The translations under genes and the position numbers were made by a program. Under the pieces are notes generated by a model. It had not been told where the DNA came from and ran no database searches. It was given only the letters and a program-made list of their open reading frames with translations. From Xanthomonas campestris pv. campestris str. ATCC 33913 (lineage in GTDB: Bacteria; Pseudomonadota; Gammaproteobacteria; Xanthomonadales; Xanthomonadaceae), in the NCBI RefSeq assembly GCF_000007145.1, contig NC_003902.1, positions 2,077,436 to 2,109,435 on the forward strand: a stretch of 32,000 nt of DNA. Reading direction: 5' to 3'. Of the stretch, positions 4,123-20,943 are shown one piece after another. Numbering within the stretch: the stretch's first letter is position 1; each line of letters opens with the position of its first letter.

Positions 4123-4131
4123 GCCGCCCTT

Positions 4132-5089: not shown

Positions 5090-6790
5090 ATGTGGAAACG
5101 ATCGGCGCCTTTTGCGCTGGCGGCTTGCCTATGGGCGGTTGCCGGGCAGGTGGCTGCACAACAGGCAGCACCCACCACGCTGGACCGGCAGGAGCAGTTG
5201 CGTCAGGCCGAAGAGATCCAGCGCCGGCAGGAGCAGGAGCGCCAGGCGCCGTTCGCCGGCCCGCGCGAGGATGCCGAGCGGGTTGATGCGCGCAGTACTG
5301 TGCTGCCCAAGGAGGAACTGTGCTTTGCGATCACCCGTGTACGTCTGTCCGGTGCTGGGGCGGATGGAGCGCGTTTTGGGTGGCTTTGGAAATCCCTGCG
5401 CCGGTATGAAGGCCGTTGCATCGGGCGCGCGGGTATCGATGTCATTCGCCGCCGCGCGTTGGACCAGCTGGTTGCACGGGGCCTGGTAACCACGCGCATC
5501 GGCGTGCCCGAGCAGGATCTCTCACGCGGCGAACTCCGCTTTGAATTGATGCCTGGCCGCTTGCGCGACGTGCGCATCGTGTCCGATCAGGGCAGCGCGT
5601 ATTGGAAGAATGCGTTGCCACTGCGCCGTGGCGACTTGCTGGACCTGCGCGCGATCGAACAGGCCGTGGAGCAGTTCAAACGGCTGCCATCGCAGGACGC
5701 CAAGATCGATATCGCACCCGGTGATGCGCCAGGCGAATCGGATCTGGTCATCACCCTGCAGCACGGCCGTCGCTGGCGCGGCGTACTCAACGCCGACGAT
5801 TCGGGGGTTGAGGCGACGGGGCGGATGCAGGGCGGTCTGGACGTATCTTTCGACAATCCATTTGGCCTCAACGATGTGCTCAGCGTCGGCTACAGCCACG
5901 ATCTGGCCACCCGCGACGAAGAGCGCGGCACGCGCGGCAACAGCCTGAGTTACAACCTGCCGTGGGGATGGTGGACGCTGGCGCTGTCTGCGTCCTCGTA
6001 TCGTTATCACCAGCGGGTGGATGGGTTTCTGCAGACTTTCCAGTCCAGCGGCGAATCCAGCAACGCACAGCTGGATCTCCAGCGTGTCCTGCATCGCAAC
6101 GGCACCAGCAAGACCTCTGTCGGCGTCACGGTGGGGCGCCGGCGTGCACGCAGTTATCTGGATGGCGTGGAAATCGGCATCCAGCGTCGCGATACCAGCA
6201 GTGCGGAATTCTATTTCACCCATCGGCGCTATTTGGGGGCGCTGCAACTCGACGTGCGGCTTGCGCACCGGCGTGGCACGCCGTGGTTCGACAGCCAATG
6301 GACTGGCTATGACCCGCAGATCGGTTTCCCCTCGTTTCGCTATGGCGTCACCACGCTGGACGTCAGCACAGCGCTGCCGTTCAAGCTGGGTGCGGTGCCG
6401 TTTGCATGGGAAAGCAGCCTGCGCGCACAGACGGCGGGCGAGCTGTTGCTCGGGTCGGAATTCGTCACCATTGGCGGCCGTTACAGCGTGCGCGGGTTCG
6501 ACGGCGAAGCCACGCTGGGTGCCGAGAAAGGCGCCTATTGGCGCAACACGCTCAGCCTGCCTGTGCAGCAACTCGGCATAACGCCGTACCTCGGCTTGGA
6601 TGCAGGCCGCATTGATGGCAGCAGTGCCAGCGGCCTGCGCGGGCGCAGCCTGGTCGGCGGTGCCGTGGGCCTGCGTGGCGGCTGGTTCGGCGCCAGCATC
6701 GATGCCTTTGCCGGTTGGGCGATCCATCGCCCGGATGGTTTCGGCAGTGCTCAGCCTGCGTACGGCGCACGGTTGATCTACCAGTTTTGA
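5090..6790 (+). CDS. fhaC: TpsB outer-membrane transporter (ShlB/FhaC/HecB family) of a two-partner secretion system
   Basis: 566-aa ORF with a signal peptide (MWKRSAPFALAACLWAVAGQVAAQ), a POTRA-like N-terminal half, a beta-barrel C-terminal half containing GGRYSVRGF, and a terminal F. It lies directly upstream of a TpsA gene. Confidence 0.9.
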   Translation: MWKRSAPFALAACLWAVAGQVAAQQAAPTTLDRQEQLRQAEEIQRRQEQERQAPFAGPREDAERVDARSTVLPKEELCFAITRVRLSGAGADGARFGWLWKSLRRYEGRCIGRAGIDVIRRRALDQLVARGLVTTRIGVPEQDLSRGELRFELMPGRLRDVRIVSDQGSAYWKNALPLRRGDLLDLRAIEQAVEQFKRLPSQDAKIDIAPGDAPGESDLVITLQHGRRWRGVLNADDSGVEATGRMQGGLDVSFDNPFGLNDVLSVGYSHDLATRDEERGTRGNSLSYNLPWGWWTLALSASSYRYHQRVDGFLQTFQSSGESSNAQLDLQRVLHRNGTSKTSVGVTVGRRRARSYLDGVEIGIQRRDTSSAEFYFTHRRYLGALQLDVRLAHRRGTPWFDSQWTGYDPQIGFPSFRYGVTTLDVSTALPFKLGAVPFAWESSLRAQTAGELLLGSEFVTIGGRYSVRGFDGEATLGAEKGAYWRNTLSLPVQQLGITPYLGLDAGRIDGSSASGLRGRSLVGGAVGLRGGWFGASIDAFAGWAIHRPDGFGSAQPAYGARLIYQF

Positions 6791-6797
6791 CATTGAC

Positions 6798-6823: not shown

Positions 6824-6859
6824 CGGATTGATGCCGCCATTGGCGGGCGAGAGAGACAC

Positions 6860-9800
6860 ATGGACAAGCAAACGATGGGCATGCGTGGTTACGTGGCCGA
6901 ACAGTGCAAGCGCGGACTGGCGCTGCTGCTGTGCTGCACGGTGACCTGGACATCGTTTCCGGCGTGGGCGCAGGTTGCGCCAACGCCCAATCCCGGCGGT
7001 CAACAGCCCGGCCAGCAGGTCGCGGCCAACGGCGTGCCGGTGGTGGACATCGTCGCGCCGAATGCGCGTGGCATCTCGCACAACCGCTACAGCAACTTCA
7101 ATGTTGGCCCCAATGGATTGATCCTCAATAACAGCGCGCAGATTTCCAAGACCGAACTTGGCGGCTACGTGGCCGGTAACAACAATCTGCAACGCAGCGG
7201 CGCGGCCTCGTTGATCCTCAACGAAGTGACCTCGGCCAGCAGCCGCCTGCAGGGCTATACCGAAATTGCAGGCGCCAAGGCGCAATTGGTCATCGCCAAC
7301 CCCAATGGCATTTCGTGCGATGGCTGCGGCTTCCTCAACACCTCGCGTGTCACTTTGACGACCGGCGCGCCCAACCTGGGTAGCGATGGTGCATTGAACG
7401 GCTTCACGGTGACTGGCGGTGCGTTGAGCATCGGTAGCAATGGCCTGGATGCGTTCAATGTGGACCGTCTGGACCTGCTGTCGCGCCAGTTGAGCGTGGG
7501 CGGTTCCATCTGGACCAAGGAACTGGTAGCCACGGCCGGTACCGGCCGTATCAATTACGACGGCATGCTGCTGGATGTGTTGCCGGGCACCGATGGTGGC
7601 GCACCGGCGATCGGTATCGACGTTGCGCAGCTTGGCGGCATGTATGCGGACCGGATTCGCCTAATTGCCACAGAGGCCGGTGTCGGCGTGGTAAGTCGCG
7701 GGACCTTGGCCGCGCAAAGTGGTGATCTGCAGATCGATGGCGCAGGGCAGGTGAGCTTGCGTGGCACCACGGTCGCGCGCGACGGCTTGAGCGCGCGTGC
7801 GGCTGGCGATCTGGAGCAGAGCGGCGTGCTTGGATCGCAGCAGGGCACGGTCAGCCTGCGCGGCGCACAGCTGCGTCTGGGGGGCGATCTGGTCGCCGCA
7901 GGTGCACTGGATGCGCAGGCCAGTGGCACGCTGACACACAGTGGGCGTAGCAGCGCGGGCTCGATCCGTCTGTTCGGTTCTCAATTGAACGCGGACGGCA
8001 GTTTGCATACGCAAGGTGTGCTGGACCTTGGCGCCGATGGGCTGCTGCGCACCGGCGGGGTTGCTTATGCAGGTGCGGGTGCGACCCTGCGCGCCGTGCG
8101 CCTTGGCGTGTCGGGGACACTGCAGAGCGGTGCTTCGATCAGCATGCAGGCGAACGAGATCGATGCACTGGGAACGTTGGACGCAGCGACCGCGTTGCGG
8201 GTGAACAGCACAGGCGGCTTGCGCCTGGCGGGGCTGGCCCAGGCGGGGCAGGATGCCGATGTGCAGGCCGGCGGCCCCCTGGAGCTGCAGGGCCAGCTGG
8301 TTGCTGGCAATGCGCTTTCGTTGGGTGCAGGCAGCGCGCGTATCGCGCAAGGCGCGGCGGTATCGGCGGGTGGCGATCTGGCCATGCGTAGCGTCGGGTT
8401 GTTGGAGACGGCCGGTAGCGCCTATGCAGGCCGCGACCTTCAGGTCCAGGCGGGTGCGCTGAACAACGCCGGACGCCTGTCTGCTGTGCGCGCTGCGCAA
8501 GTGGCGGTGGATCAGGCGGTGGACAACAGCGGCACGCTGGTCGCTGGCGCAACCTTGCGTGTGGATGCGGGGCAGCTGGACAGCCGCGGCGATGTGGGCA
8601 GCCAGGCGGCTGACACTGTGGTGCGGAGCCGCAGCAGCCTGAATCTGCGCGGCAATACCGTGGCAGGCGCGGCCATGACGCTGGATGCCGCGACCACCGC
8701 CGATGTCTCCGGCACGCTCAGTGCGGGCCGGCTGGATCTGCGCAGTGGCGGCAACGCCACACTTGCCGGCGCGATACAGACCAGCAGCGGTGCGCTGACC
8801 GTGGCGTCTGCTGCAGCGCTGACCAGCAGCGGCATCCTGCGGTCCACGGGCGAGCTGGCGTTGCAGGCCAACGGGTCCCTGCTGCAGCGCGGACAACTGC
8901 GCAGCGACGGCAATCTGCTGCTCGCAGGTGCGGCCATCGATAGCGACGGCACCGTGGACAGTGGTGGCAACCTTCGTCTTGCCAGCCAGGGCGACATGCA
9001 GCTAGCCGGCACCCTTCAAAGCGCAGGTGCAACTGCGCTACAAGCCAGTGGCCGGGTGCACAACGGCGGTGCAGTCGTTGCGGTGGGCACGTTGGGCCTG
9101 GATGCCGCAGCGCTGCGGAATGCGCAAGGTGCGGCGTTGTCGTCTCAGGGTGATGCCACCTTGCGTACCGCCGGCCTGCTGGATAACGCGGGCAGCCTGT
9201 CTGCCGGCGGCAACCTGCAGCTCACTGCAGCGAACGTGGTGCAACAGGGCAGCGCGACTGCGGGCAACGCACTGACCGCTTCGGTCAGCGAAACGCTCGA
9301 CAACACCGGCAGCCTGGTCGCCAAGCAAGCCGTGCAAATCGATGCCGGCGCGTTGCGCAGCAATGGGCAGCTTGGCAGCGAGTCGGCCGATGTTCGATTG
9401 AATTCGCAAGGCGATATGCGCTTGGGCGGCGTGGTAGCTGCGGCAACCGAGCTCCAGGCAGCGGCTGCCGGAGATCTGCAGCAAGACGGCGCCTTGCGTG
9501 GGCAATCGGTGACGGTGCAGGCTGGGCGGGACCTCACCACTGCAGGTAGCTTGCAATCCACCAACGCGCTGGACCTGCAGGCGCAGCGCACGCTGACCTT
9601 TGCTGCGCAGGGTGCGGTCGGCGGCGATGCGCGTCTGCGTGCAGGCACGCTCGCCACCACCGACGCTGCGGTGCTCCAGAGCGCCGGTGCGATTGGCCTG
9701 GACGCTACGGCCATCGACAGCCGCGGCAAGCTCGATGCTGCGGGCGACCTACGTGCCAGCAGCCAAGGAGATCTGCGGCTTGCCGGTGTTGCGCAAGGCG

Positions 9801-12800
9801 GGCGCGATGTCACGCTGAGCGCTGGTGGAAACCTCGAGAATGCTGCGCAAGTGTTTGCCGGCGGCGATTTGGCCGCACAGGCGCAGCGCATTGAAAATGC
9901 CAGCGCCGGTGTGTTGGCCGCCGAGCGGGATGTTGCGGTGGACAGTACTACGCAGCTGGTCAATGCCGGCCGCGTGCAAGCCGGTCGGGATCTTCAGATC
10001 ACCACTGCCGGCTTCGAACAGACGGGCAGCGCCTCTGCAGGCGCTGCACTGACCGCAATGATTGCAGGCGCTCTGGAAAACAGCGGCAACCTGATTGCCA
10101 AAGATGCGCTACGCGTTGATGCCGGCACGTTGCGCAGCAGCGGCCAGTTGGGCAGTGAGCGTGCCGCCGTCAGCTTGAACAGCCTGGGCGAAATGCAACT
10201 GGCGGGCGTGGTCGCTGCGGCAACCACCTTGCAGGCCACTGCAGCAACCGACCTGCAACAGGCCGGCGCGCTCAAGGCCCAGTCCATCGCACTCCAGGCT
10301 GGGCGCGATCTCGCTGCCGCCGGCACCCTGCAGTCCACATCCACGCTCGATCTGCGCGCGCAACGTGCCTTGACCATCACTGGTCAGGCATCCAGCAGCG
10401 CAGCGACTTCTCTCACCGCCGGGACGATTGCCACCGGCGTCGATGCCGTCGTGCAGAGCGGCAGCGGCATCACCCTGGACGGGCAGTCCATCGACAGCCG
10501 TGGTGCGCTCGATGCCGCCAGTGACCTGCAGATTTGCAGCACTGGCGCACTGGCGCTGGCCGGTGTTGCCCAGGCCGGGCAGGACGTGGTGCTGACCGCC
10601 GGTGGCGCCTTCGACAACGCAGCACAGGTTGTTGCGGCGCGCGATCTGCGCCTGCAGGCGGCCACTGCCAGCAATGCAGCTGGCGGAACATTGGGGGCAT
10701 TGCGCGATCTGCACGTGGAGACGGCTGGCGTGTTCGACAACGCCGGCAGCCTGCATGGCGAACGCAGCCTGGCGCTGAGCACGGGCGCGCTGCTGCAGCG
10801 TGGGCGTTTGTACAGCGGTGATGCGCTGTCGATCACTTCGCAAGGCGCATTCGACAATAGCGGCCAGTTGGTGTCCGGCAATGATCTGAGCATTACCGCA
10901 AGCCGCATCAGCAGCAATGGCCAGTTGGGATCGGTGAATGGCGCGGTGGCGCTGACCAGCCAGGGCGATGTCGACCTGAAGGGCGTGGTATCTGCCGCCA
11001 CCACCCTGCAGGCCACGGCCGGCGGGGACCTGCTACAGGCGGGCACGCTCTCTGCGCAGTCTGTGACGCTGAATGCCGGGCGCGACCTCAGCGCTTCCGG
11101 TACCTTGCAGTCTGCCTCCACCTTGGACATGCAGGCGCAGCGCGCACTGCGCATAAGTGGCCAAGCCCAGGCAAACAGCATCGCCTTGCAGGGCGGTAGC
11201 GTGGCAACAGGGACTGGCGCCGTCGTCAAGAGTGTCGGTGCGATCACGCTGGACGGCGCTGCCATCGATAGCCGCGGTACGTTGGATGCCGGTAGCGATC
11301 TGTCATTGCGCAGCACCGGTGACCTGTCTGTCGCCGGCATCGCGCAGGCAGGTCGCGACGTGGTGCTGAGCGCTGCGGGAACCGTGCAGAACGGCGGCCA
11401 GGTGGTAGCCGGTCGCGACATGTCGGTGCAGGCAGGTCGTGTCGACAACACTGCTGCCGGCGCGCTTGGTGCGGGTGGAGCACTTACCGTGGTCAGCGCT
11501 GGCGCGTTGCAGAACGACGGCGCCCTGCAGAGTGGCGGCGAGCTGCGCATGACCGCAGCAAGCCTCGATCAGAGCGGTAGCGCGTTCGCCGGCAATACGC
11601 TGGTTGCAAACATCACCGGTACGCTGGACAACCGCGGCAGTCTCACCGCCAAAAATGCATTGCAGCTGGACAGCGGTGGCTTGCGCAGCAGCGGGCAGCT
11701 GGGTAGTGAGACAGCTGGCGTCACGCTGCACAGCCGGGGCGATCTGCAGTTGCAGGGCGTTGTTGCCGCGGCGACCACCTTGCAGGCCACTGCGGTGGGC
11801 GATCTGCAACAGGCCGGCTCGCTCAAGGCGCAGTCCGTTGCGCTGCAGGCCGGCCGCGACCTGGGTATCTCCGGTACGCTGCAATCGGCATCGTTACTCG
11901 ACCTGCAGGCGCAGCGCACGCTGGGCATGACAGGGCAGGCGAGTGCCGCCGGCAATGCCAGCTTGCGCGGTGCGCAGGTGGTCACCGGTCAGGCGGCGGT
12001 GCTGCAGAGCGGTGGGGCCATCACCGTGGACGGTGCGGCGATCGATAGCCGCGGCGCGCTGGATGCAGCGACCGACCTGACGTTGCGCAGTACCGGCGAC
12101 CTTGCGGTGGCCGGCATCGCGCAGGCAGACCGCAATCTCACTTTGGCCGCCACAGGCGCGCTCAGCAATGCGGCGCAGGTCGTTGCCGGCCAGGCGCTCG
12201 GCGTCACCGCAAACAGCGCGAGCAATGCCGCGACCGGTGTACTACTCGCCCAGGGGAGCACCACGCTGGCGATCGGCGGCCTGTTCGATAACGCCGGCGC
12301 CGTGCGTGCGGGCAACCAGCTGAGCATGAACGTCGGCAGCCTGCGCCAGACCGGGCAGGCCTACGGTCTGCAGGGCCTGGGGTTGATCGCCGGCGGCGCG
12401 GTGGACAATCGTGGTGATCTGATCGGCGGTAACGCGTTGCGTGTGGAAGCGGCGCAGCTGAGCAGTAGCGGCCAGCTGGGCAGCGAGCGTGGCGATGTCG
12501 CACTGATCAGTCGCGGCAACCTGCAACTTGGCGGCACGCTCGCAGCGGCAGGGGCGTTTTCGGCCCAGGCGGATGGCGCGTTGGCGCAGAGCGGCAGCGT
12601 GAGTGCCGGCTCCAATGTGGAGCTGCGTGCGAAGGGTGACCTGAATGTTGCTGGCCAGCTTGGCGGCCAGCAGATCACCTTGAACAGCGATGCGGTCCTG
12701 CGCCAGCAAGGCGTGGTCAGCGGCACCACTGTCGGTTTGCAGGGTGCGCGTATCGAAAATGCCGGCCAGACCACAGCCTCCGGCAATCTCACCTTGCGCG

Positions 12801-15616
12801 CCGGCGACATCAGCATTGGTGGCACCGTTGGCGCCGGTATCGCAGGCGATGGCAGCTTGGGCAACGGCAACACGCTCAGCGTGATCGCAGACCGCCAACT
12901 CACTGCGTCCGGCAAGTTGCTGGCCGGCGGCAATCTCATCGCACAGGGAAGCCAGTTGCAGTTGGCCGGTGCCAGCACGCGCGTCACTGGCAACGCCAGC
13001 TTGACCACGGGCGGTGATCTGGATCATCGCGGTGGCGATCTACTTGCGGGCGGTACGCTTAGCCTGCAGGCGGGTGGCCGTATCGATCACGGTCTGCTTG
13101 GATCGGTTGGCGGAAAGCTGCAGGCCAACCAGATCAGCATCGATGGCGGCAGCTTGAACAATGCCGGCGGCCAGCTGGTGCAAAGCGGCAGCGGAGCGAC
13201 CCGCGTCGTGATCGGCGGTGCATTCGACAACACCGGCGGCACGCTGGCCAGCAATGGCCAGGATCTGACCATCAGTGCCGGCAGTGTGGAGAACGCGCAA
13301 GGCCGCATTGAACACGCCGGTGCCGGCAGTTTGTCGGTCACCAGCCGCGGCGCCTTGGGTAACAGCGGTGGGCGCCTGGTCAGCCAGGGTCAGCTATCCG
13401 TCGGCGCAAGTGCCGCGTTGAATAACCAGAGCGGCGTGATTGCCGCGGCGGGTGATGCAGTGGTTACGGCCGCCAGCCTTAACAACGTTGGCGGCTCGGT
13501 GGCAGCGCGTGGATTGACTGTGCAAACCACCGGCGCGGCCGACAATCGTAATGGCCTGCTGCAGGCCAACGGCGGTGCACTGATCCTGCGTGCAGACAGC
13601 CTCAGCAACGCCGGCGGTACCGTGCACGCACTGGCCAATGCAGGCGTAGGCGGAGGCTTGCGCGTCGAACTGACGCGTAGCCTGGATAACGGCGATGGCG
13701 TGATCGGTGCCAGCAACGATGCAGTAATCACGGCGGAAAACATCAGCAGCAGCGGTGGCAGCCTGCAAGCCGGGCGTGACCTCAATGTCACTGCGCGCGG
13801 TCAGCTGGACAATCATCAGGGTGGCAAACTCAGCGCCGGGCGCGACCTCATCGTTGTGGCGACCGGTGCGCTACTCAATAGCGGTGGCCAACTGGATGCC
13901 GGCAATGCACTGACTGCATCGGCGGGCCGGATCGACAACACTCAAGGCAGCATCGTCAACAACGGAGGCGGGCTGACCCGCATCACCACCGGCGGTGCGC
14001 TGACCAACACCAGCGGCAATCTCGGTGGGCGTGGCAGCGTGGTCATCGATGCGGCCAGCATTGCCAACAACAGCGGCCAGCTGGTCGCTGGTGGCGATTT
14101 GATTGCCAACACCAGTGCGTTGAACAACCAGGGCGGCAACGTTTACGCCGGTGCCAACTTCCGCCTGGAGCGCAGCGGCGCCACGTTGGATAACCGCAAC
14201 GGCAAGATCAAGGCCGAGCAGTCGGTCCGCCTCAATGTGCAGAGCCTGAGCAATGCGGGCGGGCAGATCGGCGCCGGCAGCACGACCGGTGGCGCTGGCG
14301 ATGTCGTGATCGATACTGTCGGCTTCGACGGTGGCGGCAGCATCCTCGCGCAGAACCTGCTCGACATGACCCTGCGCAGCGACTATACCCACCGCGCCGG
14401 GGCCGACCTCACCAGCAATGGCGATTTCAATCTGCGCGTGGGTGGCAACCTGGTCAACGAAGCCACCCTCACGGCGACGCGCCGGCTGGACATTACTGCC
14501 GGCAGCATCACCAATCGCGCCGGTGCCAACATCGCGTCCAATGACACCCGCCTCAATGGGGGCGGCGTCATCGATAACGCGGGCAGCATCTCCGGCAATG
14601 GCGCGCTGTCGCTGGTGGCGAACAGCATCAATAACACCGGCAGCATTGTCGGTGGCAATGTCTCTGTGAACACCGGCACGCTGGTCAATGGCGCGGATCT
14701 TGGTGGCGCCACCGACAACGCCGCGTACGGCTCCGCGTTGCTCGGCTCGACCGGCAACATGAGCCTTATCGTGCGCGACCAGCTGCTCAATCGCGACGCA
14801 CGCATCTTCAGCCTGGGCAATATCGCCATCGGTGGTGCGCAGGATGCCGGCGGCACGCTGGTGTCGCGCACGGGTGTGGTGAACAACTTGTCGGGCAGCA
14901 TCGAGGCGGATGGCAATATTTTGATCGCGGCGAATCAGATCAATAATCGGCGCCGTGTGGTCGATGCTAGAACCGGCCCGCTGACCGACGCTGAACGTTT
15001 TGCGGCAAATGCAGCGATGCCTGAAGATGAAATTCGGCGTGATCCCAGCCCAGGGGCGACCGTCATGGGCATTCGCTACACAGGACATCAGCCGGGGCTC
15101 TATCGTGCGTATAGCGTACGCGAGCGTGAACAGCTGATCGCCGTTAGCGCCGAAGGACGCATTGCTGCTGGCGGTAGTATCGCGTTGTCTGGATACGTGA
15201 CGAACAATGTGTCCACCATCGCCGCCGGTGGAGCGCTACTGTTAAATCAACGCGGCGTCGGTGGTTTATCGGACGCAATGCTCTCCGACAGTGACGATGT
15301 GCTCAATCAGTCGCTGGCGCTAAGGCAAGTTGTCGATTACACGGACACCGAATACAGGGCAATGCCGATCAACGGCGACTGTATGCATCGTCCCGGTCAA
15401 AATCTTCCTTGCTATTGGGAAGAGGAGGCACGCGTTTTCGGATCCGGCACATTGGACAACAGCTATCTCGCCCTCGGCGCCAGCATGACCGGTGGCCAAG
15501 GCGTCAGTATCAATGGTGCCAACATCAGTAACGGCGCAGTGGGGAGTGATGGGCGTAATGTCAGCGGCGCCTCGCTTGCAGCCGGCGTGACCTGCCCCCA
15601 TCGTCCGTACCAGTGA
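6860..15616 (+). CDS. fhaB: filamentous-haemagglutinin-like TpsA/CdiA-like exoprotein, C-terminally truncated by an IS insertion
   Basis: 2918-aa ORF. The N-terminal TPS domain is present (VVDIVAPNARGISHNRYSNFNV, LILNN, ANPNGISCDG), followed by very long Gly/Ala/Leu-rich FHA-type repeats. Native sequence ends at 15587. The last 8 codons (TCPHRPYQ) and the stop come from the IS inverted repeat. Confidence 0.9.
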   Translation: MDKQTMGMRGYVAEQCKRGLALLLCCTVTWTSFPAWAQVAPTPNPGGQQPGQQVAANGVPVVDIVAPNARGISHNRYSNFNVGPNGLILNNSAQISKTELGGYVAGNNNLQRSGAASLILNEVTSASSRLQGYTEIAGAKAQLVIANPNGISCDGCGFLNTSRVTLTTGAPNLGSDGALNGFTVTGGALSIGSNGLDAFNVDRLDLLSRQLSVGGSIWTKELVATAGTGRINYDGMLLDVLPGTDGGAPAIGIDVAQLGGMYADRIRLIATEAGVGVVSRGTLAAQSGDLQIDGAGQVSLRGTTVARDGLSARAAGDLEQSGVLGSQQGTVSLRGAQLRLGGDLVAAGALDAQASGTLTHSGRSSAGSIRLFGSQLNADGSLHTQGVLDLGADGLLRTGGVAYAGAGATLRAVRLGVSGTLQSGASISMQANEIDALGTLDAATALRVNSTGGLRLAGLAQAGQDADVQAGGPLELQGQLVAGNALSLGAGSARIAQGAAVSAGGDLAMRSVGLLETAGSAYAGRDLQVQAGALNNAGRLSAVRAAQVAVDQAVDNSGTLVAGATLRVDAGQLDSRGDVGSQAADTVVRSRSSLNLRGNTVAGAAMTLDAATTADVSGTLSAGRLDLRSGGNATLAGAIQTSSGALTVASAAALTSSGILRSTGELALQANGSLLQRGQLRSDGNLLLAGAAIDSDGTVDSGGNLRLASQGDMQLAGTLQSAGATALQASGRVHNGGAVVAVGTLGLDAAALRNAQGAALSSQGDATLRTAGLLDNAGSLSAGGNLQLTAANVVQQGSATAGNALTASVSETLDNTGSLVAKQAVQIDAGALRSNGQLGSESADVRLNSQGDMRLGGVVAAATELQAAAAGDLQQDGALRGQSVTVQAGRDLTTAGSLQSTNALDLQAQRTLTFAAQGAVGGDARLRAGTLATTDAAVLQSAGAIGLDATAIDSRGKLDAAGDLRASSQGDLRLAGVAQGGRDVTLSAGGNLENAAQVFAGGDLAAQAQRIENASAGVLAAERDVAVDSTTQLVNAGRVQAGRDLQITTAGFEQTGSASAGAALTAMIAGALENSGNLIAKDALRVDAGTLRSSGQLGSERAAVSLNSLGEMQLAGVVAAATTLQATAATDLQQAGALKAQSIALQAGRDLAAAGTLQSTSTLDLRAQRALTITGQASSSAATSLTAGTIATGVDAVVQSGSGITLDGQSIDSRGALDAASDLQICSTGALALAGVAQAGQDVVLTAGGAFDNAAQVVAARDLRLQAATASNAAGGTLGALRDLHVETAGVFDNAGSLHGERSLALSTGALLQRGRLYSGDALSITSQGAFDNSGQLVSGNDLSITASRISSNGQLGSVNGAVALTSQGDVDLKGVVSAATTLQATAGGDLLQAGTLSAQSVTLNAGRDLSASGTLQSASTLDMQAQRALRISGQAQANSIALQGGSVATGTGAVVKSVGAITLDGAAIDSRGTLDAGSDLSLRSTGDLSVAGIAQAGRDVVLSAAGTVQNGGQVVAGRDMSVQAGRVDNTAAGALGAGGALTVVSAGALQNDGALQSGGELRMTAASLDQSGSAFAGNTLVANITGTLDNRGSLTAKNALQLDSGGLRSSGQLGSETAGVTLHSRGDLQLQGVVAAATTLQATAVGDLQQAGSLKAQSVALQAGRDLGISGTLQSASLLDLQAQRTLGMTGQASAAGNASLRGAQVVTGQAAVLQSGGAITVDGAAIDSRGALDAATDLTLRSTGDLAVAGIAQADRNLTLAATGALSNAAQVVAGQALGVTANSASNAATGVLLAQGSTTLAIGGLFDNAGAVRAGNQLSMNVGSLRQTGQAYGLQGLGLIAGGAVDNRGDLIGGNALRVEAAQLSSSGQLGSERGDVALISRGNLQLGGTLAAAGAFSAQADGALAQSGSVSAGSNVELRAKGDLNVAGQLGGQQITLNSDAVLRQQGVVSGTTVGLQGARIENAGQTTASGNLTLRAGDISIGGTVGAGIAGDGSLGNGNTLSVIADRQLTASGKLLAGGNLIAQGSQLQLAGASTRVTGNASLTTGGDLDHRGGDLLAGGTLSLQAGGRIDHGLLGSVGGKLQANQISIDGGSLNNAGGQLVQSGSGATRVVIGGAFDNTGGTLASNGQDLTISAGSVENAQGRIEHAGAGSLSVTSRGALGNSGGRLVSQGQLSVGASAALNNQSGVIAAAGDAVVTAASLNNVGGSVAARGLTVQTTGAADNRNGLLQANGGALILRADSLSNAGGTVHALANAGVGGGLRVELTRSLDNGDGVIGASNDAVITAENISSSGGSLQAGRDLNVTARGQLDNHQGGKLSAGRDLIVVATGALLNSGGQLDAGNALTASAGRIDNTQGSIVNNGGGLTRITTGGALTNTSGNLGGRGSVVIDAASIANNSGQLVAGGDLIANTSALNNQGGNVYAGANFRLERSGATLDNRNGKIKAEQSVRLNVQSLSNAGGQIGAGSTTGGAGDVVIDTVGFDGGGSILAQNLLDMTLRSDYTHRAGADLTSNGDFNLRVGGNLVNEATLTATRRLDITAGSITNRAGANIASNDTRLNGGGVIDNAGSISGNGALSLVANSINNTGSIVGGNVSVNTGTLVNGADLGGATDNAAYGSALLGSTGNMSLIVRDQLLNRDARIFSLGNIAIGGAQDAGGTLVSRTGVVNNLSGSIEADGNILIAANQINNRRRVVDARTGPLTDAERFAANAAMPEDEIRRDPSPGATVMGIRYTGHQPGLYRAYSVREREQLIAVSAEGRIAAGGSIALSGYVTNNVSTIAAGGALLLNQRGVGGLSDAMLSDSDDVLNQSLALRQVVDYTDTEYRAMPINGDCMHRPGQNLPCYWEEEARVFGSGTLDNSYLALGASMTGGQGVSINGANISNGAVGSDGRNVSGASLAAGVTCPHRPYQ
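8519..12400 (+). repeat. in-frame tandem super-repeat inside fhaB, period 777 bp (259 aa), five full copies
   Basis: The repeat-unit anchor motif (V/L/F)(D/E)N-x-G starts at 8519, 9296, 10073, 10850, 11624 and 12401, giving spacings of 777, 777, 777, 774 and 777 nt. Blocks such as IDSRG-LDAA-DL...AGVAQAG-DV recur at the same offset. A more diverged copy probably sits upstream (about 7742) and a partial one downstream (to about 12650). Confidence 0.85.
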
Positions 15617-16669
15617 TTACTGATAAAGCCCGGGGTTGAAGGGTACTGCGTTGTTGGCTTGTTGTGTACGGTAGTTGGCGGCGAACTGTGCCGGCGGGAT
15701 GCGACCACAACTGCTGTGCGGCCTGATCTGGTTGTAGTGGCGTCGCCAGTCTGCGATCACGTCCCGGGCTTGTGCCAACGAGGTGAACCAGTGCTCGTTG
15801 AGGCACTCGTCGCGGAACTTGCCGTTGAAGCTTTCGATGTAGGCGTTCTGCGTGGGGGCACCCGGCTCGATCAGGATGTGCTCGATGCCATGTTGCTGCG
15901 TCCAGGCAATGAAGGCGCGACTGGTGAACTCGGGGCCATTGTCGGTGCGGACCGCGCGTGGATAGCCACGGAAACACGCCGCCTGATCGAGCAGGCGCAC
16001 TACGTAAGCCCCGCTGATGCCGTGATCCACGGCAATGTCCACGCTCTCGCGAGTGAAGTCGTCGACCACGGTCAGGCACTTGATGCGGCGTGCGTTGGCC
16101 AGCGCATCGAACACGAAGTCCATGCTCCAGGTGTCGTTCGGCATGGAGGACGCCAGCAGTTTCTGCCGCTCACCCACCGGACGCTTGGCCTTGCGCCGTT
16201 TGCGCACCTTCAGCTCGGCTTCCTCGTACAGGCGATAAATCTTTTTGTGATTCACGGATGGAAACTCCGGGCGCAACAAATCATGCAGTCGGCGATAGCC
16301 GAAGCGGCGGTGGGTCTGGGCCAGCTCGACCAGCCGCGCCGACAGCGCCTGCGTGGCTGGCGTCGGCACGGGTGCGTGGCGGAAAGCATCGCGGGACAGC
16401 CCCGCAAGGCGGCAAGCCCGGCGCTCGCTCAACGGGGTGTGTTCGAGCATTCGTCGGATTGCCTCGCGCTTGCGTTGCGGGGCTAGCGTTTTACCCCGAA
16501 GCCAACCTTCAGCGCTTCGATGTCCAGGTGCGCCTCGGCCAGCAACTTCTTCAATCGAGTGTTCTGGACCTCCAGTTCTTTCAGCCGCTTGGCCTCGTCG
16601 GCCTCCATCCCCCCGTACTTGGCCCGCCACTGATAAAAGCTGGCCGGGCTGAAACCATGCCGACGGCAC
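15617..16669 (-). CDS. IS3-family transposase OrfB (DDE integrase domain), presumably expressed as an OrfAB -1 frameshift fusion
   Basis: The ORF is in the -1 frame relative to OrfA and overlaps it at 16483-16669. The rve-type core includes WSMDFV, VDDFTRE and RTDNGPEF. I could not identify the slippery heptamer. Confidence 0.85.
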   Translation of the reverse strand: MPSAWFQPGQLLSVAGQVRGDGGRRGQAAERTGGPEHSIEEVAGRGAPGHRSAEGWLRGKTLAPQRKREAIRRMLEHTPLSERRACRLAGLSRDAFRHAPVPTPATQALSARLVELAQTHRRFGYRRLHDLLRPEFPSVNHKKIYRLYEEAELKVRKRRKAKRPVGERQKLLASSMPNDTWSMDFVFDALANARRIKCLTVVDDFTRESVDIAVDHGISGAYVVRLLDQAACFRGYPRAVRTDNGPEFTSRAFIAWTQQHGIEHILIEPGAPTQNAYIESFNGKFRDECLNEHWFTSLAQARDVIADWRRHYNQIRPHSSCGRIPPAQFAANYRTQQANNAVPFNPGLYQ

Positions 16670-16749
16670 AACTCTGCCACGGCCATGCCCGCGTCGGCCT
16701 GTTTGATAAACCCGATGATCTGCTCGGTGCTGAATCTGCTCTTCTTCAT
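16483..16749 (-). CDS. IS3-family transposase OrfA (HTH)
   Basis: 88 aa: MKKSRFSTEQIIGFIKQADAGMAVAELCRRHGFSPASFYQWRAKYGGME..., followed by a leucine-zipper-like tail. This is the typical IS3/IS407 OrfA. Confidence 0.9.
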   Translation of the reverse strand: MKKSRFSTEQIIGFIKQADAGMAVAELCRRHGFSPASFYQWRAKYGGMEADEAKRLKELEVQNTRLKKLLAEAHLDIEALKVGFGVKR

Positions 16750-17087
16750 GTCCGTCCTCTTGGGTTCACGGACTTTATAGCTTCAGCTGGTACGGCTCAG
16801 TGGGGGCAGGTCAGCAGGTCACCCTTTCCAAACAAAGAGTATTTGCCTCAGTTCTTTTTTGAAATAGCGAAAAATATTTCCGACCTTATGCTTTATCGCT
16901 ACTCTCGCGGGGATGATATCAATCTAATAGGGCGGAGATTCGATACATTGCTAGACTCATGGGAGAAATCCGTCGGGCTGGGAAATGATATCTGGGACGA
17001 AGATACTAAGCGAACTAGAACTTCCTGGGATGTCAATATTGATTTTTATTCATATTGCCTGCGCCTTGTAGGATTGTCTTTGTTGTT

Positions 17088-18595
17088 AGTCGCCCCTGAA
17101 AAACCCCCTTCAAGCACCAAGTGTCATCGGCGACAGCGGCACGGCGCTAAAGGATGGCCATCCCATCGCCCGCATCCAGGCACGCAAAAACGCGATCCAG
17201 CGCAGCAGCCAGCGCAGGTTGTAGCCGGCGGCGCAGCCGAGTACGTGCAGCGCATCGCCTTGTGCACCTTTCAGCCTGCAGCGACGCAACCTGCAGTCGT
17301 CTTTCAGATGTCCGATCACCGGTTCCACCGCCTGCCGTCGTTTGATCCAGCGCCATTGCCGTCGCGTCAGCGTCTTGGCCTTGCCACGATGGAGCACCTG
17401 CACGCCATCGACCTCGCGCCCGCGATAGCCCAGGTCCACGATCGCCACCGTCGGTTCTACGCTCAGATCCTGCAGCAACCCGCGTGTCTGCTCCAGCTGC
17501 TCGGCCAAGGTGTCGCCGTCGTACGGGTTGCCCGGGAAGCTACGCGCACCCACGACCAATCCCTTGCAGGCGGTGACCGCAATGCCGACCTTGACGCCGA
17601 ATTCGTACGCTTGACGCGCCTTGCCCTTACCGATGCATTCCACTTCCGGGGCATGCAATGCGTACAGTTTTTGTTTGTCCTTCGGACGCTGCGTGTACAG
17701 CCGTTGCGCACGTTCCAGCCAGACCGCGATGCGCTCGCGCACGCCGGGTTCCACCTGGTCCAGCTTGCGCGCGATATCGCGCAACACCCGCCCCAAGACC
17801 GTGCGTTGACGTCGCAGCACGCGCTGCATGCGCTTGAACTGGCGTGCATGCGCATAGCGGCCCGCCTTGCGGCTCAGGGCCGGACCTTGCCGTGCGTAGC
17901 TCTGCCGCAACCCGATGCCGTAACGCTTGGCCAGCAGCACCAGTTTCTTGCGTGCCACCTCCAGCAACCGACTATCGGTCGGATAGGCAATCGCCTTTTC
18001 CTGCACCGTGGTGTCCACGATCACCCGCGACAACTCGCGTGCGTCCACCGCCTGCATGGCATGTGCAGCGTTGATGGTGTGTGCCAGCAACTCTTCCATC
18101 CCCGCTTCGTCAAGCCGCTGACGCCAGCGCGTCAGCGAGCTGGCATCGCACGGCAAGCGCGTCTGGAACACGACCTCGCCAGTGAAAAACTGCCAATACG
18201 GATTTTCCAGCCAACGCTCGCACACCGCCTCATCGGACAGGTCGTAGGCGTGTTTGAGGTAGAGCAAACCGGCGATCAGCCGCACCGGCAATGCCGGCCG
18301 ACCGCCACCAGCCTGGGTGGCCGGCAAGCGCGATGAAAGTGCTTGCTCCAACGCCGTCCACGGCATCCGTTGGCTCAGCTGCGCCAGCGGATGCCGCAGA
18401 TCGATCTGGTTCTCCAGGCGCGAACGAAACAACTCCTCGGCAGGCATGTGCTCGGCAGCAGGACGGCGTGTATGCATGAGTGGAAATTGCCAGAAACCAG
18501 CCTTCAGCGTAGCGAAAACTGGTAGTTCTGGCACGCCACTGCAGACATCAAGGCCTTGCGGGCGTTGGGTGATTGGGGGTTTTTCAGGGGCGACT
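17088..18595 (-). mobile_element. IS5-family insertion sequence (about 1.5 kb)
   Basis: Perfect terminal inverted repeats: AGTCGCCCCTGAAAAACCCCC at 17088-17108 and its reverse complement at 18575-18595. Flanking duplication is TGTT (17084-17087 and 18596-18599). The boundary and duplication are ambiguous, because TTGTTAG is also repeated. It contains a single DDE transposase ORF. Confidence 0.85.
17110..18477 (-). CDS. IS5-family DDE transposase
   Basis: The tracked ORF 17110..18534 starts at a GTG. In-frame ATGs occur at 18477 (MHTRRP..) and 18447 (MPAEELFRSRLENQIDLRHPL..). The body is typical of IS5-group transposases (..VIVDTTVQEKAIAYPTDSRLL.., ..AIVDLGYRG..). Confidence 0.85.
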   Translation of the reverse strand: MHTRRPAAEHMPAEELFRSRLENQIDLRHPLAQLSQRMPWTALEQALSSRLPATQAGGGRPALPVRLIAGLLYLKHAYDLSDEAVCERWLENPYWQFFTGEVVFQTRLPCDASSLTRWRQRLDEAGMEELLAHTINAAHAMQAVDARELSRVIVDTTVQEKAIAYPTDSRLLEVARKKLVLLAKRYGIGLRQSYARQGPALSRKAGRYAHARQFKRMQRVLRRQRTVLGRVLRDIARKLDQVEPGVRERIAVWLERAQRLYTQRPKDKQKLYALHAPEVECIGKGKARQAYEFGVKVGIAVTACKGLVVGARSFPGNPYDGDTLAEQLEQTRGLLQDLSVEPTVAIVDLGYRGREVDGVQVLHRGKAKTLTRRQWRWIKRRQAVEPVIGHLKDDCRLRRCRLKGAQGDALHVLGCAAGYNLRWLLRWIAFLRAWMRAMGWPSFSAVPLSPMTLGA

Positions 18596-19407
18596 TGTTA
18601 GATTTTCCTGCTCCCAAATGGCAGCGGCTCATAAGTTTGGTTGGCAATGAGGGGGAGGATGAAGTTCTTGATCGAATTATTGCTCATAGATCTCCGGGGA
18701 GAATTATCGGATCTAGAGTTTGCTTTCCGCAAGCATATAGTTCGCTCCTGGAGGTGATGAGGGAGCGCGATGAAAATCAAGCGTCGCATTTAAAGCAATT
18801 TATCGCGGGATGGTTTCAAAGTTTGCGCGATGCGGGATCCACAAGTGTTCCCCCTCCACACCGCACGCCATATTGGTGGAAGTCCTGTGCCGATGAGGCG
18901 TTTGGCATGCAGGGCAGTTATCACGGTTGCTGGTGCATTGAAGCAGCAGTCGTCGCAAGATTATGTCAAATAGACGATAGTGCCTGCGTGGAGATGCCAT
19001 TTTATCCTGCCGACCTTGTCTCAGACGGCCGAAGCCCTCGATACCCTGATGTCCCATCTTCTTTTGAGCTCAGGCTGGATCAAAAAAAGAAGAGTTTTAG
19101 TGGGCTAAGAGGAATATTTAATTTCCGTAAAAAGTGAATTCGACCTGATCGCCACCGGCGGTGGTGAAGACAGCAACCTCCTGGTGCGCGGCAGCGACAT
19201 CAAAGCCGGCAACAACCTGCTGTTGGCTGCCGACAACAACATCACCCTGGAAGCGGCGCAGGACACCTTCGAGCAGCACAGCACCAGCAAGAGCAAGAGT
19301 GCAGCGATCGGCGTGGCGGTCACCTATGGTGCGGACGACTTTGCCGCCGGCATCACCGCCAGCGCCAGTGGCTCGCGTGGCAAGGCCGGTGATAACGGGG
19401 TCAGGTT

Positions 19408-20757
19408 CTAAGGTATCCCCACGTTTTACACCGTAAGCGTCATCTGCTCGCGCACTGCCGCAGGCAGTGCGCGCAAGCGCCCTATCCACCGTGAGACGGG
19501 TTCCATCGGCCACTGCCTGACCAGCGCTTCTCGGCCGATGCGTAGCGTGGAGTAAAGCTTGCGTGTGCTGTTGCGAGGAGACAGCCACTGGGCGATACCG
19601 GTCGCTTCGCATCCCAGCCCCGCCAACCAGCTGGCGAATGCAGCCAACGTATTGATCAGCAGCAGGATCTGCAGTCGCTCGCCGCGTCGGGTCAAACTGT
19701 CTTCCAGCGCCTGGCCGTAGCGATGTGATTTCAGATCGCGAAATGCAAGCTCGATCTGCATCCGTCGTGCGTACACATTGACCAACTGCTTTGCGCTGGG
19801 CGCCTGCAGCTGCGGGGATGCAACGATGAGCCAAGGCTCGCGCTCGCGCGCTGCGGCCTTCAGACTCGATGACGCACGCGAGACTTTGGCGGGTGAGCGG
19901 CGATTGCACTGTTTGCGCCCTTGCCGTGCCTTGGCGTAAATCACCAACCTGCAATCGAGTGGATCGCTGCGATTGGCCTGCATCGGCGGTAACTCGCATG
20001 CACGATTGGACGCCAACACATGCAGTTTCCGGCTGTCGATCCACTGATCTGCTTCATCCCGCACGTCCTGCGGCTTGACTTGCGTGCGCCCGCGCAGTCG
20101 CCCAACCCAACACCAGCCCATGGCCGATACAGCGCGGAACCACGGTGTCCGGAAGCCGGCGTCAGTGACCAGGATCGGGCGAACATCGTCCGGAACCAGT
20201 GCCCTCAGTTGTTGCAAGAAGCGTCTTTCTGCACCAGGCGATCCCTGCTGCTTTCCTGGCACTACCATGTCCAGCAAGGTAAGCGTGCGGCCGCCCACCG
20301 GCACCGCTGCGCGCAGCAGACACCACGATTTGTCTGGCTTCAGATCGCTCCAGTCGATGACGATTACCGGCTGCGCGCCGCGCAGCAGCCAGTGCGCCAT
20401 CTCGTGGTCGATCACTGATCGCTCGACCTGCAAATTGCGATTACTCAACAGGCGATCAACTGCCTTGAGCGGCGCGCGCACCCGCAGTGCGCTCGGCCAC
20501 GAACGTGCGATGTCCATCAGTGTCAGCCTGCGTCCGTGCAACAACGCCTCGACCGCATGCAGCAACGCGCGTTCGCGCAACGCATGCATCCCGGACAGTG
20601 AGTTGGGCAGGCACTTCTGCAATACTTCGCTGGCGCGCATGGTCGTCAACCTTCTCTGGCTTAGTCACCTTGAAGATTGCGCCATGCGCGCACTTTCTTC
20701 CAGGCAATTACGTCGCAAGTGATTGATTTGCCAGGAGGAAATGTGGGGAAACCTCAG
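19408..20757 (-). mobile_element. IS4-family insertion sequence (IS10-like), 1350 bp, with 9-bp target-site duplication
   Basis: Inverted repeats: CTAAGGTATCCCCACGTTTT (19408-19427) against the reverse complement of 20738-20757, CTGAGGTTTCCCCACATTTC (16 of 20 identical, IS10-like CTGAG..ATCCCC ends). The direct repeat GGTCAGGTT flanks both ends (19399-19407 and 20758-20766). Confidence 0.85.
19426..20640 (-). CDS. IS4-family DDE transposase
   Basis: The tracked ORF 19426..20649 starts at a TTG; the likely start is the ATG at 20638-20640 (MRASEVLQK..). It carries the IS4 Y-(2)-R-(3)-E-(6)-K signature in YARRMQIELAFRDLK. About 404 aa, comparable to the IS10 transposase. Confidence 0.85.
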   Translation of the reverse strand: MRASEVLQKCLPNSLSGMHALRERALLHAVEALLHGRRLTLMDIARSWPSALRVRAPLKAVDRLLSNRNLQVERSVIDHEMAHWLLRGAQPVIVIDWSDLKPDKSWCLLRAAVPVGGRTLTLLDMVVPGKQQGSPGAERRFLQQLRALVPDDVRPILVTDAGFRTPWFRAVSAMGWCWVGRLRGRTQVKPQDVRDEADQWIDSRKLHVLASNRACELPPMQANRSDPLDCRLVIYAKARQGRKQCNRRSPAKVSRASSSLKAAAREREPWLIVASPQLQAPSAKQLVNVYARRMQIELAFRDLKSHRYGQALEDSLTRRGERLQILLLINTLAAFASWLAGLGCEATGIAQWLSPRNSTRKLYSTLRIGREALVRQWPMEPVSRWIGRLRALPAAVREQMTLTV

Positions 20758-20943
20758 GGTCAGGTTCACTTATCAAGTGAGCCGGCGTCAGTTTAACGAC
20801 TGGCAGCCTCGCCTAAAGTTGATTCATCCATGATCACAGGTCTGCGCTCTGTTTGCATCGCCTGGACAGTCTATGTGGCAACGTGCGCGACATTCGAATG
20901 CCTGAATAGCATGCGCTCACTCGCTAGCTGTATGGAGATGTCG

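What the first reader, a model, noticed from the sequence alone, without database searches (positions are those of the whole stretch)
16814..19137. Low-GC immunity-like gene downstream of the truncated TpsA, hit by two different IS elements; the IS5 insertion can be removed cleanly in frame
Seen in the sequence:
- One reading frame spans 16814-17087 and resumes at 18600-19137.
- Deleting the IS5 element plus one TGTT copy (1512 nt, a multiple of 3) rejoins it as ..CLRLVGLSLLLDFPAPKWQRL...
- GC is far below the surroundings, and the gene ends exactly where high-GC fhaB-like sequence restarts at 19138.

From memory, not from a search: the C-terminal pattern SYHGCWCIEAAVVARLCQIDDSACVEMPFYPADL and the N-terminal YRYSRGDDI resemble the DUF1911/DUF1910 (PoNi-type) immunity proteins. 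Those pair with polymorphic nuclease toxins in CDI, Rhs and T6SS loci.

Inference: this was the immunity gene for the lost FhaB/CdiA C-terminal toxin. If the family call is right, that toxin may have been a PoNe-type DNase. The intact duplication suggests the IS5 insertion was a simple, relatively recent event.
Basis: partly seen in the sequence, partly recalled or inferred. Interest (0 to 1): 0.7.

Follow-up and report, generated by a model that had tools for sequence, protein, structure and literature searches.

The report
IS-wrecked PoNi immunity gene remnant
This is the dead remnant of a PoNi immunity gene at the end of a contact-dependent inhibition (FhaB/CdiA) locus in Xanthomonas campestris, cut at its 5' end next to one insertion sequence and split by another; it is an ordinary, already annotated case of toxin-locus decay.

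Summary
Removing the 1,512 nt of IS1478 plus one target duplication rejoins 16816-17088 and 18601-19137 into a 269-aa frame. That frame is identical, residue for residue, to a natural IS-free X. campestris allele (P0052) and to residues 33-299 of the intact 299-aa allele (P0048).

The family call made from memory is correct:
- Pfam PoNi_C scores 68.7 bits and PoNi_N 34.2 bits.
- The profile matches the solved PoNi of the 9WAQ complex.
- An AlphaFold model of the intact allele has the PA2201 (2FEF) fold.

The toxin inference is supported:
- Syntenic X. campestris strains keep a PoNe DNase remnant directly upstream (E 3e-62). The window has lost it.
- A Stenotrophomonas CdiA shows VENN, then PoNe, then PoNi as one collinear module.
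- 64 of 79 homologous loci have PoNe directly upstream.

- Thirty-two 5' codons are missing, and 16814-16821 is an 8-nt copy of the IS3 end, not gene sequence.
- The toxin was lost in two steps, and it is already frameshifted in related strains.
- The duplication can be read as 4 or 6 bp.

RefSeq already names the 3' fragment a PoNe immunity protein. Interest is low.

The parts
5090..6790 (+). TpsB/FhaC-type outer-membrane transporter (CdiB equivalent)
   Evidence: Pfam ShlB 350.6 bits, POTRA_2 and POTRA_3
6860..15587 (+). TpsA/FhaB (CdiA-type) gene, 2,909 native codons. It is truncated before the FHA-2, pre-toxin and toxin regions. The called ORF runs on to 15616 inside the IS.
   Evidence: Pfam TPS 187 bits and Fil_haemagg 237 bits, with no Fil_haemagg_2 or PT-VENN. 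The IS end starts at 15588.
15588..16813 (-). IS3-family (IS407-type termini TGACCTGCCCCC) element, 1,226 bp, with orfA 16483-16749 and orfB 15617-16669 on the minus strand. It has no flanking target duplication.
   Evidence: Inverted repeats located. Pfam HTH_Tnp_1, rve and rve_3. NCBIfam transpos_IS3 241 bits.
16814..16821 (.). 8-nt filler GCAGGTCA, an exact repeat of the IS terminal 8 nt, at the junction of a 1,035-nt deletion
   Evidence: Relatives have IS end|GGCTTTTTAG...1,035 nt...CCCTTTCC, whereas the window has IS end|GCAGGTCA|CCCTTTCC.
16822..17088 (+). PoNi pseudogene, 5' piece: codons 33-121 of the 299-codon gene (most of the PoNi_N domain)
   Evidence: 100% nucleotide identity to L001 and L084-L089. 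PoNi_N 34.2 bits, profile positions 47-116.
17089..18594 (-). IS1478 (IS5 family), transposase at 17110-18534 on the minus strand, 20-bp perfect inverted repeats. The target duplication is TTGTTA at 17083-17088 and 18595-18600 (or TGTT if the IS is taken as 17088-18595).
   Evidence: Transposase is identical to the annotated IS1478 transposase AAM39851.1. NCBIfam transpos_IS5_1 548.7 bits. Junctions.
18601..19137 (+). PoNi pseudogene, 3' piece: codons 122-299 plus stop, holding the complete PoNi_C (DUF1911) domain. RefSeq calls a 193-aa ORF here (18556-19137) that starts inside IS1478.
   Evidence: PoNi_C 68.7 to 69.7 bits. Exact match to WP_407470082.1.
19139..19408 (+). Relic of a CdiA FHA-2 region (orphan fragment), first part
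   Evidence: Pfam Fil_haemagg_2 64.8 bits, profile 30-110 of 170. It follows PoNi in all relatives and in L001.
19409..20756 (-). IS4-family element, 1,348 bp, transposase at 19426-20649 on the minus strand. 11-bp target duplication GGGTCAGGTTC at 19398-19408 and 20757-20767.
   Evidence: NCBIfam transpos_IS4_2 358 bits. The site is empty in L084-L089. Borders.
20768..20833 (+). Last 21 codons and stop of the FHA-2 relic ORF. This is the right edge of the CDI island. The TspO gene follows at 21009-21431.
   Evidence: Reconstruction across the IS4 site. Gene calls in relatives.

Best explanation
The region is the inactivated remnant of a PoNi (DUF1910/DUF1911) immunity gene. It was the last gene of a low-GC PoNe-toxin/PoNi-immunity cassette carried at the C-terminal end of the FhaB/CdiA contact-dependent inhibition gene of Xanthomonas campestris.

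Intact PoNi is a compact all-helical protein. It binds its cognate PoNe PD-(D/E)xK DNase and so protects the producer and its kin.

The locus decayed stepwise in this lineage:
1. An IS3-type element replaced the FHA-2, pre-toxin and N-terminal toxin part of fhaB. This state is shared with other strains. The remaining PoNe 3' part also carries a frameshift.
2. A 1,035-nt deletion next to that IS removed the rest of PoNe and the first 32 codons of PoNi.
3. IS1478 inserted between PoNi codons 121 and 122.
4. An IS4-family element hit the downstream FHA-2 relic.

The strain now has neither toxin nor a functional immunity protein from this cassette.

Shown: anatomy, family membership, order of events, and the toxin type in relatives. 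Inferred: that PoNe was the toxin of the main FhaB, and that neither fragment protects.
For: Family membership:
- Pfam PoNi_N and PoNi_C score above cut-off on the reconstruction and on the intact allele.
- The reconstruction is identical to natural alleles P0052 and P0048.
- The PoNi family profile matches chain A of the solved PoNe-PoNi complex 9WAQ (E 2.7e-13). The upstream-toxin profile matches chain B, VP14465 (E 4.6e-5).
- The AF2 model has pLDDT 91.5, and its top fold hit is 2FEF PA2201, TM 0.62-0.65 over 284 columns.

Toxin context:
- Syntenic X. campestris loci show IS3 end, PoNe remnant, intact PoNi, FHA-2 relic, TspO.
- The PoNe profile scores E 3e-62 in those loci and gives nothing in the window.
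- L087 FhaB keeps FHA-2 and PT-VENN. Its post-AENN tail and the PoNe remnant align 52% and 59% to one continuous Stenotrophomonas CdiA, with only 84 residues unaccounted for.
- 64 of 79 genome loci with a PoNi homologue have PoNe directly upstream, many at the end of 2,500-3,300-aa TpsA-like ORFs.
- GC falls from 61% to about 46% right after AENN.

Likely loss of function:
- In the solved Vibrio complex the toxin pocket is built from N-terminal helices (Y28, K45, R52, W55, D107, S108) plus the alpha9-alpha10 loop (PMC13377157). Loss of helix 1 and separation of helices 2-5 from the rest should therefore abolish binding.
Against: - The interval between the IS5-type insertion in the L087 fhaB tail and the IS3 end before PoNe is an assembly gap of Ns. 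Continuity of FhaB and PoNe in X. campestris is therefore inferred from collinearity with another genus, not read directly.
- No full-length X. campestris CdiA-PoNe was found.
- RefSeq annotates the 193-aa 3' fragment as a protein, and it holds a complete PoNi_C domain. Residual function is not formally excluded.
- Neutralisation and DNase activity were not tested for this pair.
Confidence: 0.85

Rival explanations
1. PoNe/PoNi was an orphan toxin-immunity module lying downstream of the main cdiA-CT/cdiI pair. It was not the cognate C-terminal toxin of this FhaB.
For: - CDI loci commonly carry orphan CT/immunity modules with IS elements.
- An FHA-2 relic follows PoNi.
- Homologues in other Xanthomonas (L003, L004, L008) sit in orphan/immunity islands behind IS fragments.
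- The L087 interval is an unsequenced gap.
Against: - The L087 FhaB tail after AENN (WLSQSEVDEANKAIKAC...) is homologous to the segment that directly precedes PoNe in the Stenotrophomonas and Bordetella CdiAs (L006, L010). Only about 84 residues are missing between it and the remnant.
- The GC drop starts at AENN.
Confidence: 0.12
2. The 3' fragment (193-aa ORF 18556-19137, or 166 aa from a later start) is still expressed from IS1478 read-out. It would act as a minimal PoNi_C-only immunity protein against PoNe-armed competitors.
For: - The PoNi_C domain is complete (69.7 bits).
- RefSeq calls it a protein.
- There are no substitutions relative to the intact allele.
Against: - No sigma-70-like promoter was found in 16700-19500.
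- The model shows one compact helical fold whose first five helices would be missing.
- In the solved Vibrio complex, N-terminal residues 20-60 and 107-108 form much of the toxin pocket (PMC13377157).
- Zero divergence is equally expected for a recent insertion.
Confidence: 0.05
3. The gene is a DUF1910/DUF1911 protein with a role unrelated to toxin immunity.
For: 15 of 79 homologous loci show no PoNe signal within 2.5 kb upstream.
Against: - 64 of 79 loci do show it, and the X. campestris gene itself sits directly behind a PoNe remnant.
- Immunity function is experimentally shown for two family members (PMC6688995, PMC13377157).
- Several PoNe-less loci are recognisable immunity islands.
Confidence: 0.02

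Closest known systems
PoNe/PoNi effector-immunity pairs (V. parahaemolyticus V12_14465/V12_14460; B. cereus BC3021/BC3020; Jana et al. 2019, PMC6688995; complex structure PDB 9WAQ, PMC13377157)
   Same: - Same two Pfam domains in the immunity protein.
- Same gene order, with the immunity gene directly after the toxin.
- The toxin in relatives carries the Kx3GE...GIDx2Y...Yx3ExK motif.
- Association with type V (Fil_haemagg_2) delivery was already reported for the family.
   Different: - Delivery here is by a TpsA/CdiA protein, not T6SS.
- Sequence identity to the Vibrio pair is low. Single-sequence E is 1.3e-4 for PoNi and 0.82 for PoNe; only the profiles are significant.
- In the window the toxin is gone and the immunity gene is a pseudogene.
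PA2201 of Pseudomonas aeruginosa (PDB 2FEF), the founding DUF1910/DUF1911 structure
   Same: Full-length fold match of the modelled intact allele: 284 aligned columns, TM 0.62-0.65, probability 1.00.
   Different: 17-18% identity. The comparison applies to the intact allele, not to the fragments in the window.
CDI (CdiB/CdiA/CdiI) loci with VENN-delimited, horizontally exchanged CT/immunity cassettes and orphan modules
   Same: - TpsB plus TpsA.
- A low-GC cassette starting at the (A)ENN motif in relatives.
- A trailing cdiA fragment.
- IS elements present.
   Different: The window copy lacks FHA-2, the pre-toxin domain, the toxin and a working immunity gene. It is a wreck rather than a system.

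Membership tests
PoNi immunity proteins (Pfam PF08928 PoNi_N + PF08929 PoNi_C) | PoNi_C (DUF1911) profile match above the gathering score | tested here: met
   68.7 bits against a cut-off of 25, profile positions 2-107 of 107. The same holds in the 193-aa fragment and in the intact allele.
PoNi immunity proteins (Pfam PF08928 PoNi_N + PF08929 PoNi_C) | PoNi_N (DUF1910) profile match above the gathering score | tested here: met
   34.2 bits against a cut-off of 22.4, but only profile positions 47-116 because of the 5' deletion. The intact allele scores 44.3 bits over positions 1-116.
PoNi immunity proteins (Pfam PF08928 PoNi_N + PF08929 PoNi_C) | Fold of solved family members | tested here: met
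   AF2 model of the intact allele has pLDDT 91.5. Foldseek top hits are 2FEF chains, TM 0.62-0.65. The family profile scores E 2.7e-13 against 9waq_A.
PoNi immunity proteins (Pfam PF08928 PoNi_N + PF08929 PoNi_C) | Encoded immediately downstream of a PoNe toxin domain | tested here: met
   Met in syntenic X. campestris loci (PoNe core E 3e-62, 31-nt spacer) and in 64 of 79 homologous loci. In the window itself the toxin is deleted.
PoNi immunity proteins (Pfam PF08928 PoNi_N + PF08929 PoNi_C) | Intact open reading frame able to give the full two-domain protein | tested here: not met
   32 codons are missing at the 5' end, and a 1.5-kb IS1478 lies between codons 121 and 122. The copy is therefore a pseudogene of the family.
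PoNi immunity proteins (Pfam PF08928 PoNi_N + PF08929 PoNi_C) | Binds and neutralises its cognate PoNe DNase | not testable with these tools
   Shown only for the Vibrio and Bacillus pairs (PMC6688995, PMC13377157).
PoNe DNase toxin (for the lost C-terminal domain) | Motif Kx3GE...GIDx2Y...Yx3ExK and similarity to VP14465 | tested here: met
   The remnant in relatives reads KRVVGE, GIDDLY and FVVIEYK, with F in place of the last Y. The profile of 38 upstream CTs hits 9waq_B at E 4.6e-5. The single sequence gives only E 0.82. No Pfam model exists.
PoNe DNase toxin (for the lost C-terminal domain) | Mg-dependent DNase activity | not testable with these tools
   An experiment is needed.
Contact-dependent inhibition / two-partner secretion locus | TpsB transporter, plus TpsA with a TPS domain and FHA-1 repeats | tested here: met
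   ShlB and POTRA domains; TPS and Fil_haemagg.
Contact-dependent inhibition / two-partner secretion locus | FHA-2, pre-toxin VENN domain and C-terminal toxin on the TpsA | tested here: not met
   Absent from the window FhaB. Present in strain L087 (Fil_haemagg_2 122 bits, PT-VENN 42.9 bits).
IS1478 (IS5 family) | Transposase identity, terminal inverted repeats, target duplication | tested here: met
   The transposase has the exact sequence of the annotated IS1478 transposase. Inverted repeats are 20-22 bp and perfect, and the duplication is 4 or 6 bp.

The most novel reading that the evidence does not exclude
X. campestris may keep PoNi as an orphan immunity gene under selection long after its own PoNe toxin died. 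The intact 299-aa allele is seen on about 200 contigs, while every toxin copy seen is truncated and frameshifted.

On this reading, the nested series of natural alleles (intact, lacking 32 N-terminal codons, IS1478-split, IS1478 at the stop codon) marks lineages that have escaped, or are losing, pressure from PoNe-armed competitors. A variant of this reading is that the PoNi_C-only fragment retains partial protection.
Probability: 0.15. Interest if true: 0.35.

Novelty: already known. Interest (0 to 1): 0.18.

Why it matters
It matters little beyond annotation. It documents how a CDI toxin-immunity cassette in a plant pathogen is eroded by three different insertion sequences.

The 193-aa RefSeq protein is a gene fragment, not a working protein. 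The strain is predicted to have lost both the PoNe weapon and protection against it.

The allele series across X. campestris strains could serve as a natural test of whether orphan immunity genes are maintained by selection.

Tried and rejected
- NCBIfam has no model for PoNi, and Pfam has none for PoNe. The toxin call therefore had to rest on the published motif, a home-made profile and the PDB sequence of VP14465.
- A search with the last 609 residues of the truncated FhaB found only 2 hits, because repeat-derived candidates saturated the word filter. It did not deliver full-length orthologues. Synteny was obtained instead through an exact look-up of ThrC.
- A first regex for the PoNe motif was too strict (24 of 79 loci). 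It was replaced by an HMM scan (64 of 79).
- The promoter scan found nothing reading into the 3' fragment.
- Literature searches for PoNi in Xanthomonas or CDI orphan modules in X. campestris found nothing relevant.
- I considered and rejected a simple IS3 insertion as the cause of the 5' truncation. There is no target duplication, and 1,035 nt present in relatives are missing.
- The Foldseek PDB copy predates the 9WAQ/9VY2 entries, so the fold comparison is with 2FEF only.
Full report
**What is in the sequence**

The window is Xanthomonas campestris DNA.
- Its ThrC is identical to AAM41092.1 of pv. campestris ATCC 33913.
- The transposase at 17110-18534 (minus strand) is identical to the annotated IS1478 transposase.

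Upstream lie a TpsB transporter (5090-6790) and a TpsA/FhaB gene (6860 onward). The FhaB gene has a TPS domain and FHA-1 repeats but no FHA-2, pre-toxin or toxin region.

FhaB stops being FhaB at 15587. There an IS3-family element begins (15588-16813; termini TGACCTGCCCCC; orfA and orfB on the minus strand).

From 16816 one frame runs to 17088. It is interrupted by a 1,506-bp element with perfect 20-bp inverted repeats and resumes at 18601, ending at the TGA at 19135-19137.

The element is flanked by TTGTTA on both sides. Either way 1,512 nt come out and the frame is kept.

GC is 41.6% and 48.5% in the two pieces, against 65.1% for the window.

**Is the reconstruction real?**

Yes, and this does not rest on argument alone.
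- The rejoined 269-aa product is letter for letter the protein P0052. That is a partial PoNe immunity protein called on eight other X. campestris contigs without the IS.
- Residues 3-269 of the reconstruction equal residues 33-299 of the intact 299-aa allele P0048, which is seen on 197 contigs.
- A metagenomic contig (L001) and six syntenic loci (L084-L089) match both halves at 99.7-100% nucleotide identity. The two matches overlap only by the duplicated bases, which is the empty site.

**What family?**

- Pfam gives PoNi_C at 68.7 bits (cut-off 25; full profile).
- Pfam gives PoNi_N at 34.2 bits (cut-off 22.4; profile positions 47-116 only, because the N-terminus is missing).
- The intact allele covers PoNi_N positions 1-116.
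- A profile of 28 homologues hits chain A of the solved Vibrio PoNe-PoNi complex (9waq_A, E 2.7e-13) and PA2201 (2fef).
- An AlphaFold2 model of the intact allele (pLDDT 91.5, pTM 0.88) is a compact all-helical protein. Its only significant PDB fold matches are the 2FEF chains, with 284 aligned columns and TM 0.62-0.65.

**What toxin, and whose?**

Exact look-up of the window's ThrC retrieved syntenic X. campestris loci. These carry, in order:
- an IS3-type end;
- 1,035 nt that the window lacks;
- the rest of PoNi;
- the FHA-2 relic;
- TspO.

The extra 1,035 nt encode the C-terminal approximately 290 residues of a toxin plus the first 32 codons of PoNi. The toxin part contains KRVVGE...GIDDLY...FVVIEYK, which is the published PoNe motif Kx3GE..GIDx2Y..Yx3ExK (PMC6688995).

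A profile built from the toxin ends upstream of PoNi homologues in other genera gives these results:
- It scores E 3e-62 on the X. campestris toxin part.
- It finds nothing in any frame of the window.
- It hits the solved PoNe domain VP14465 (9waq_B, E 4.6e-5).
- Across 79 genome loci with a PoNi homologue, 64 have a PoNe match directly upstream. Many of these sit at the end of 2,500-3,300-residue TpsA-like ORFs.

Strain L087 still has the FhaB FHA-2 and PT-VENN domains. The few dozen residues after its AENN motif, before another IS cuts the gene, align to the Stenotrophomonas sp. C3 CdiA at 52% identity. The PoNe remnant aligns to the same protein at 59% identity. That CdiA is continuous, with only 84 residues lying between the two aligned pieces.

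GC drops from about 61% to about 46-49% right after AENN. I therefore conclude, by inference, that PoNe was the C-terminal toxin of the main FhaB and PoNi its cognate immunity gene. The gap of Ns in L087 leaves an orphan-module reading possible, at about 12%.

**Order of events**

1. The junctions fhaB(15587)|IS and IS|PoNe-remnant are shared by several strains, so this deletion is old. The PoNe remnant also carries a 1-nt frameshift near its end in every copy seen. No full-length X. campestris PoNe-CdiA turned up.
2. The window lineage lost a further 1,035 nt next to the IS end. The same junction (..GQVSRSPFPNK..) is read in IS1478-free alleles on roughly 90 contigs (P0049, P0051, P0052, P0058).
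3. IS1478 then entered between codons 121 and 122. This state is seen on only 3-7 contigs (P0047, P0057) and carries no substitutions.
4. An IS4-family element (19409-20756, 11-bp duplication) hit the FHA-2 relic. It is absent from all six relatives.

Other strains carry an independent IS1478 at the PoNi stop codon (P0055).

**Function now**

The model shows five helices (residues 9-120) before the IS1478 site.

In the solved Vibrio complex the toxin pocket is formed by N-terminal helices (Y28, K45, R52, W55, D107, S108) together with the alpha9-alpha10 loop in the DUF1911 part (PMC13377157).

The window copy lacks helix 1 and separates helices 2-5 from the rest. No promoter-like site reads into the 3' piece.

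The 193-aa ORF that RefSeq names WP_407470082.1 starts inside IS1478 and is best regarded as a fragment. This is inference; residual function is given about 5%.

**Comparison and novelty**

PoNe/PoNi pairs are published, including their association with type V/Fil_haemagg_2 delivery (PMC6688995) and a complex structure (PMC13377157). RefSeq already labels both the intact gene and this fragment as a PoNe immunity protein.

The held literature has nothing on this locus in Xanthomonas. Even so, what is here is an ordinary decayed CDI locus.

The finding is confirmed and its interpretation supported, but it is of low interest.

**Unexplained details**

- An 8-nt copy of the IS end lies at the deletion junction (16814-16821).
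- Two IS3 variants, about 88% identical, sit in opposite orientation between identical junctions in different strains.

Noticed in passing
window 16806-16821: The last 8 nt of the IS3-type element (GCAGGTCA) occur twice in tandem. The second copy fills the junction of a 1,035-nt deletion that removed the PoNe remnant and 32 PoNi codons. It is not a target duplication, and the mechanism is unknown.
   Followed up: partly
window 15588-16813 versus L084, L086, L088 (positions about 1900-2500) and L087/L089: The same two junctions (fhaB|IS and IS|PoNe remnant) hold one IS3/IS407-type variant in the window and L085. In other strains they hold an approximately 88%-identical variant in the opposite orientation. 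A precise swap or inversion of this kind is not explained.
   Followed up: partly
window 19409-20756: An IS4-family element with an 11-bp target duplication (GGGTCAGGTTC) interrupts the FHA-2 relic. The site is empty in all six syntenic X. campestris loci.
   Followed up: yes
L084, L086, L088 around positions 4120-4320: An independent IS1478 insertion lies at the PoNi stop codon in the opposite orientation. It gives a 328-aa read-through product (P0055). Its target has the same T-NNNN-A ambiguity (4- or 6-bp duplication) as the window copy.
   Followed up: partly
L084-L089 and L001, about 90 nt before the PoNe stop: All X. campestris copies of the PoNe remnant share a 1-nt frameshift (..HTDPNGGV then out of frame). 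The toxin was therefore dead before the window lineage deleted it.
   Followed up: yes
L003 and L004 (Xanthomonas assemblies GCA_003363885.1 and GCA_003363845.1), positions 2500-14900: A 75%-identical PoNi lies in an island of immunity genes (CdiI_4, CdiI, Imm42) together with IS3 fragments and a Fil_haemagg_2 fragment. This looks like an orphan/immunity array.
   Followed up: no
L007 (Vulcaniibacterium tengchongense), positions 9071-10831: Two PoNi genes lie in tandem, with a PoNe core about 0.9 kb upstream of the second.
   Followed up: no
window 18556-19137: RefSeq carries this 193-aa ORF (first 15 residues encoded by IS1478 and the duplication) as protein WP_407470082.1. ATCC 33913-type records carry a 166-aa version. 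Both are fragments of a disrupted gene.
   Followed up: yes
alignment A2 (toxin ends of Pseudomonas-type loci such as L016, L018): The segment between the pre-toxin motif and PoNe in these proteins matches the N-terminal (entry) part of PDB 7vmc_B, a tRNA nuclease CdiA (E 4.8e-16). The same translocation module is thus combined with different toxins.
   Followed up: no
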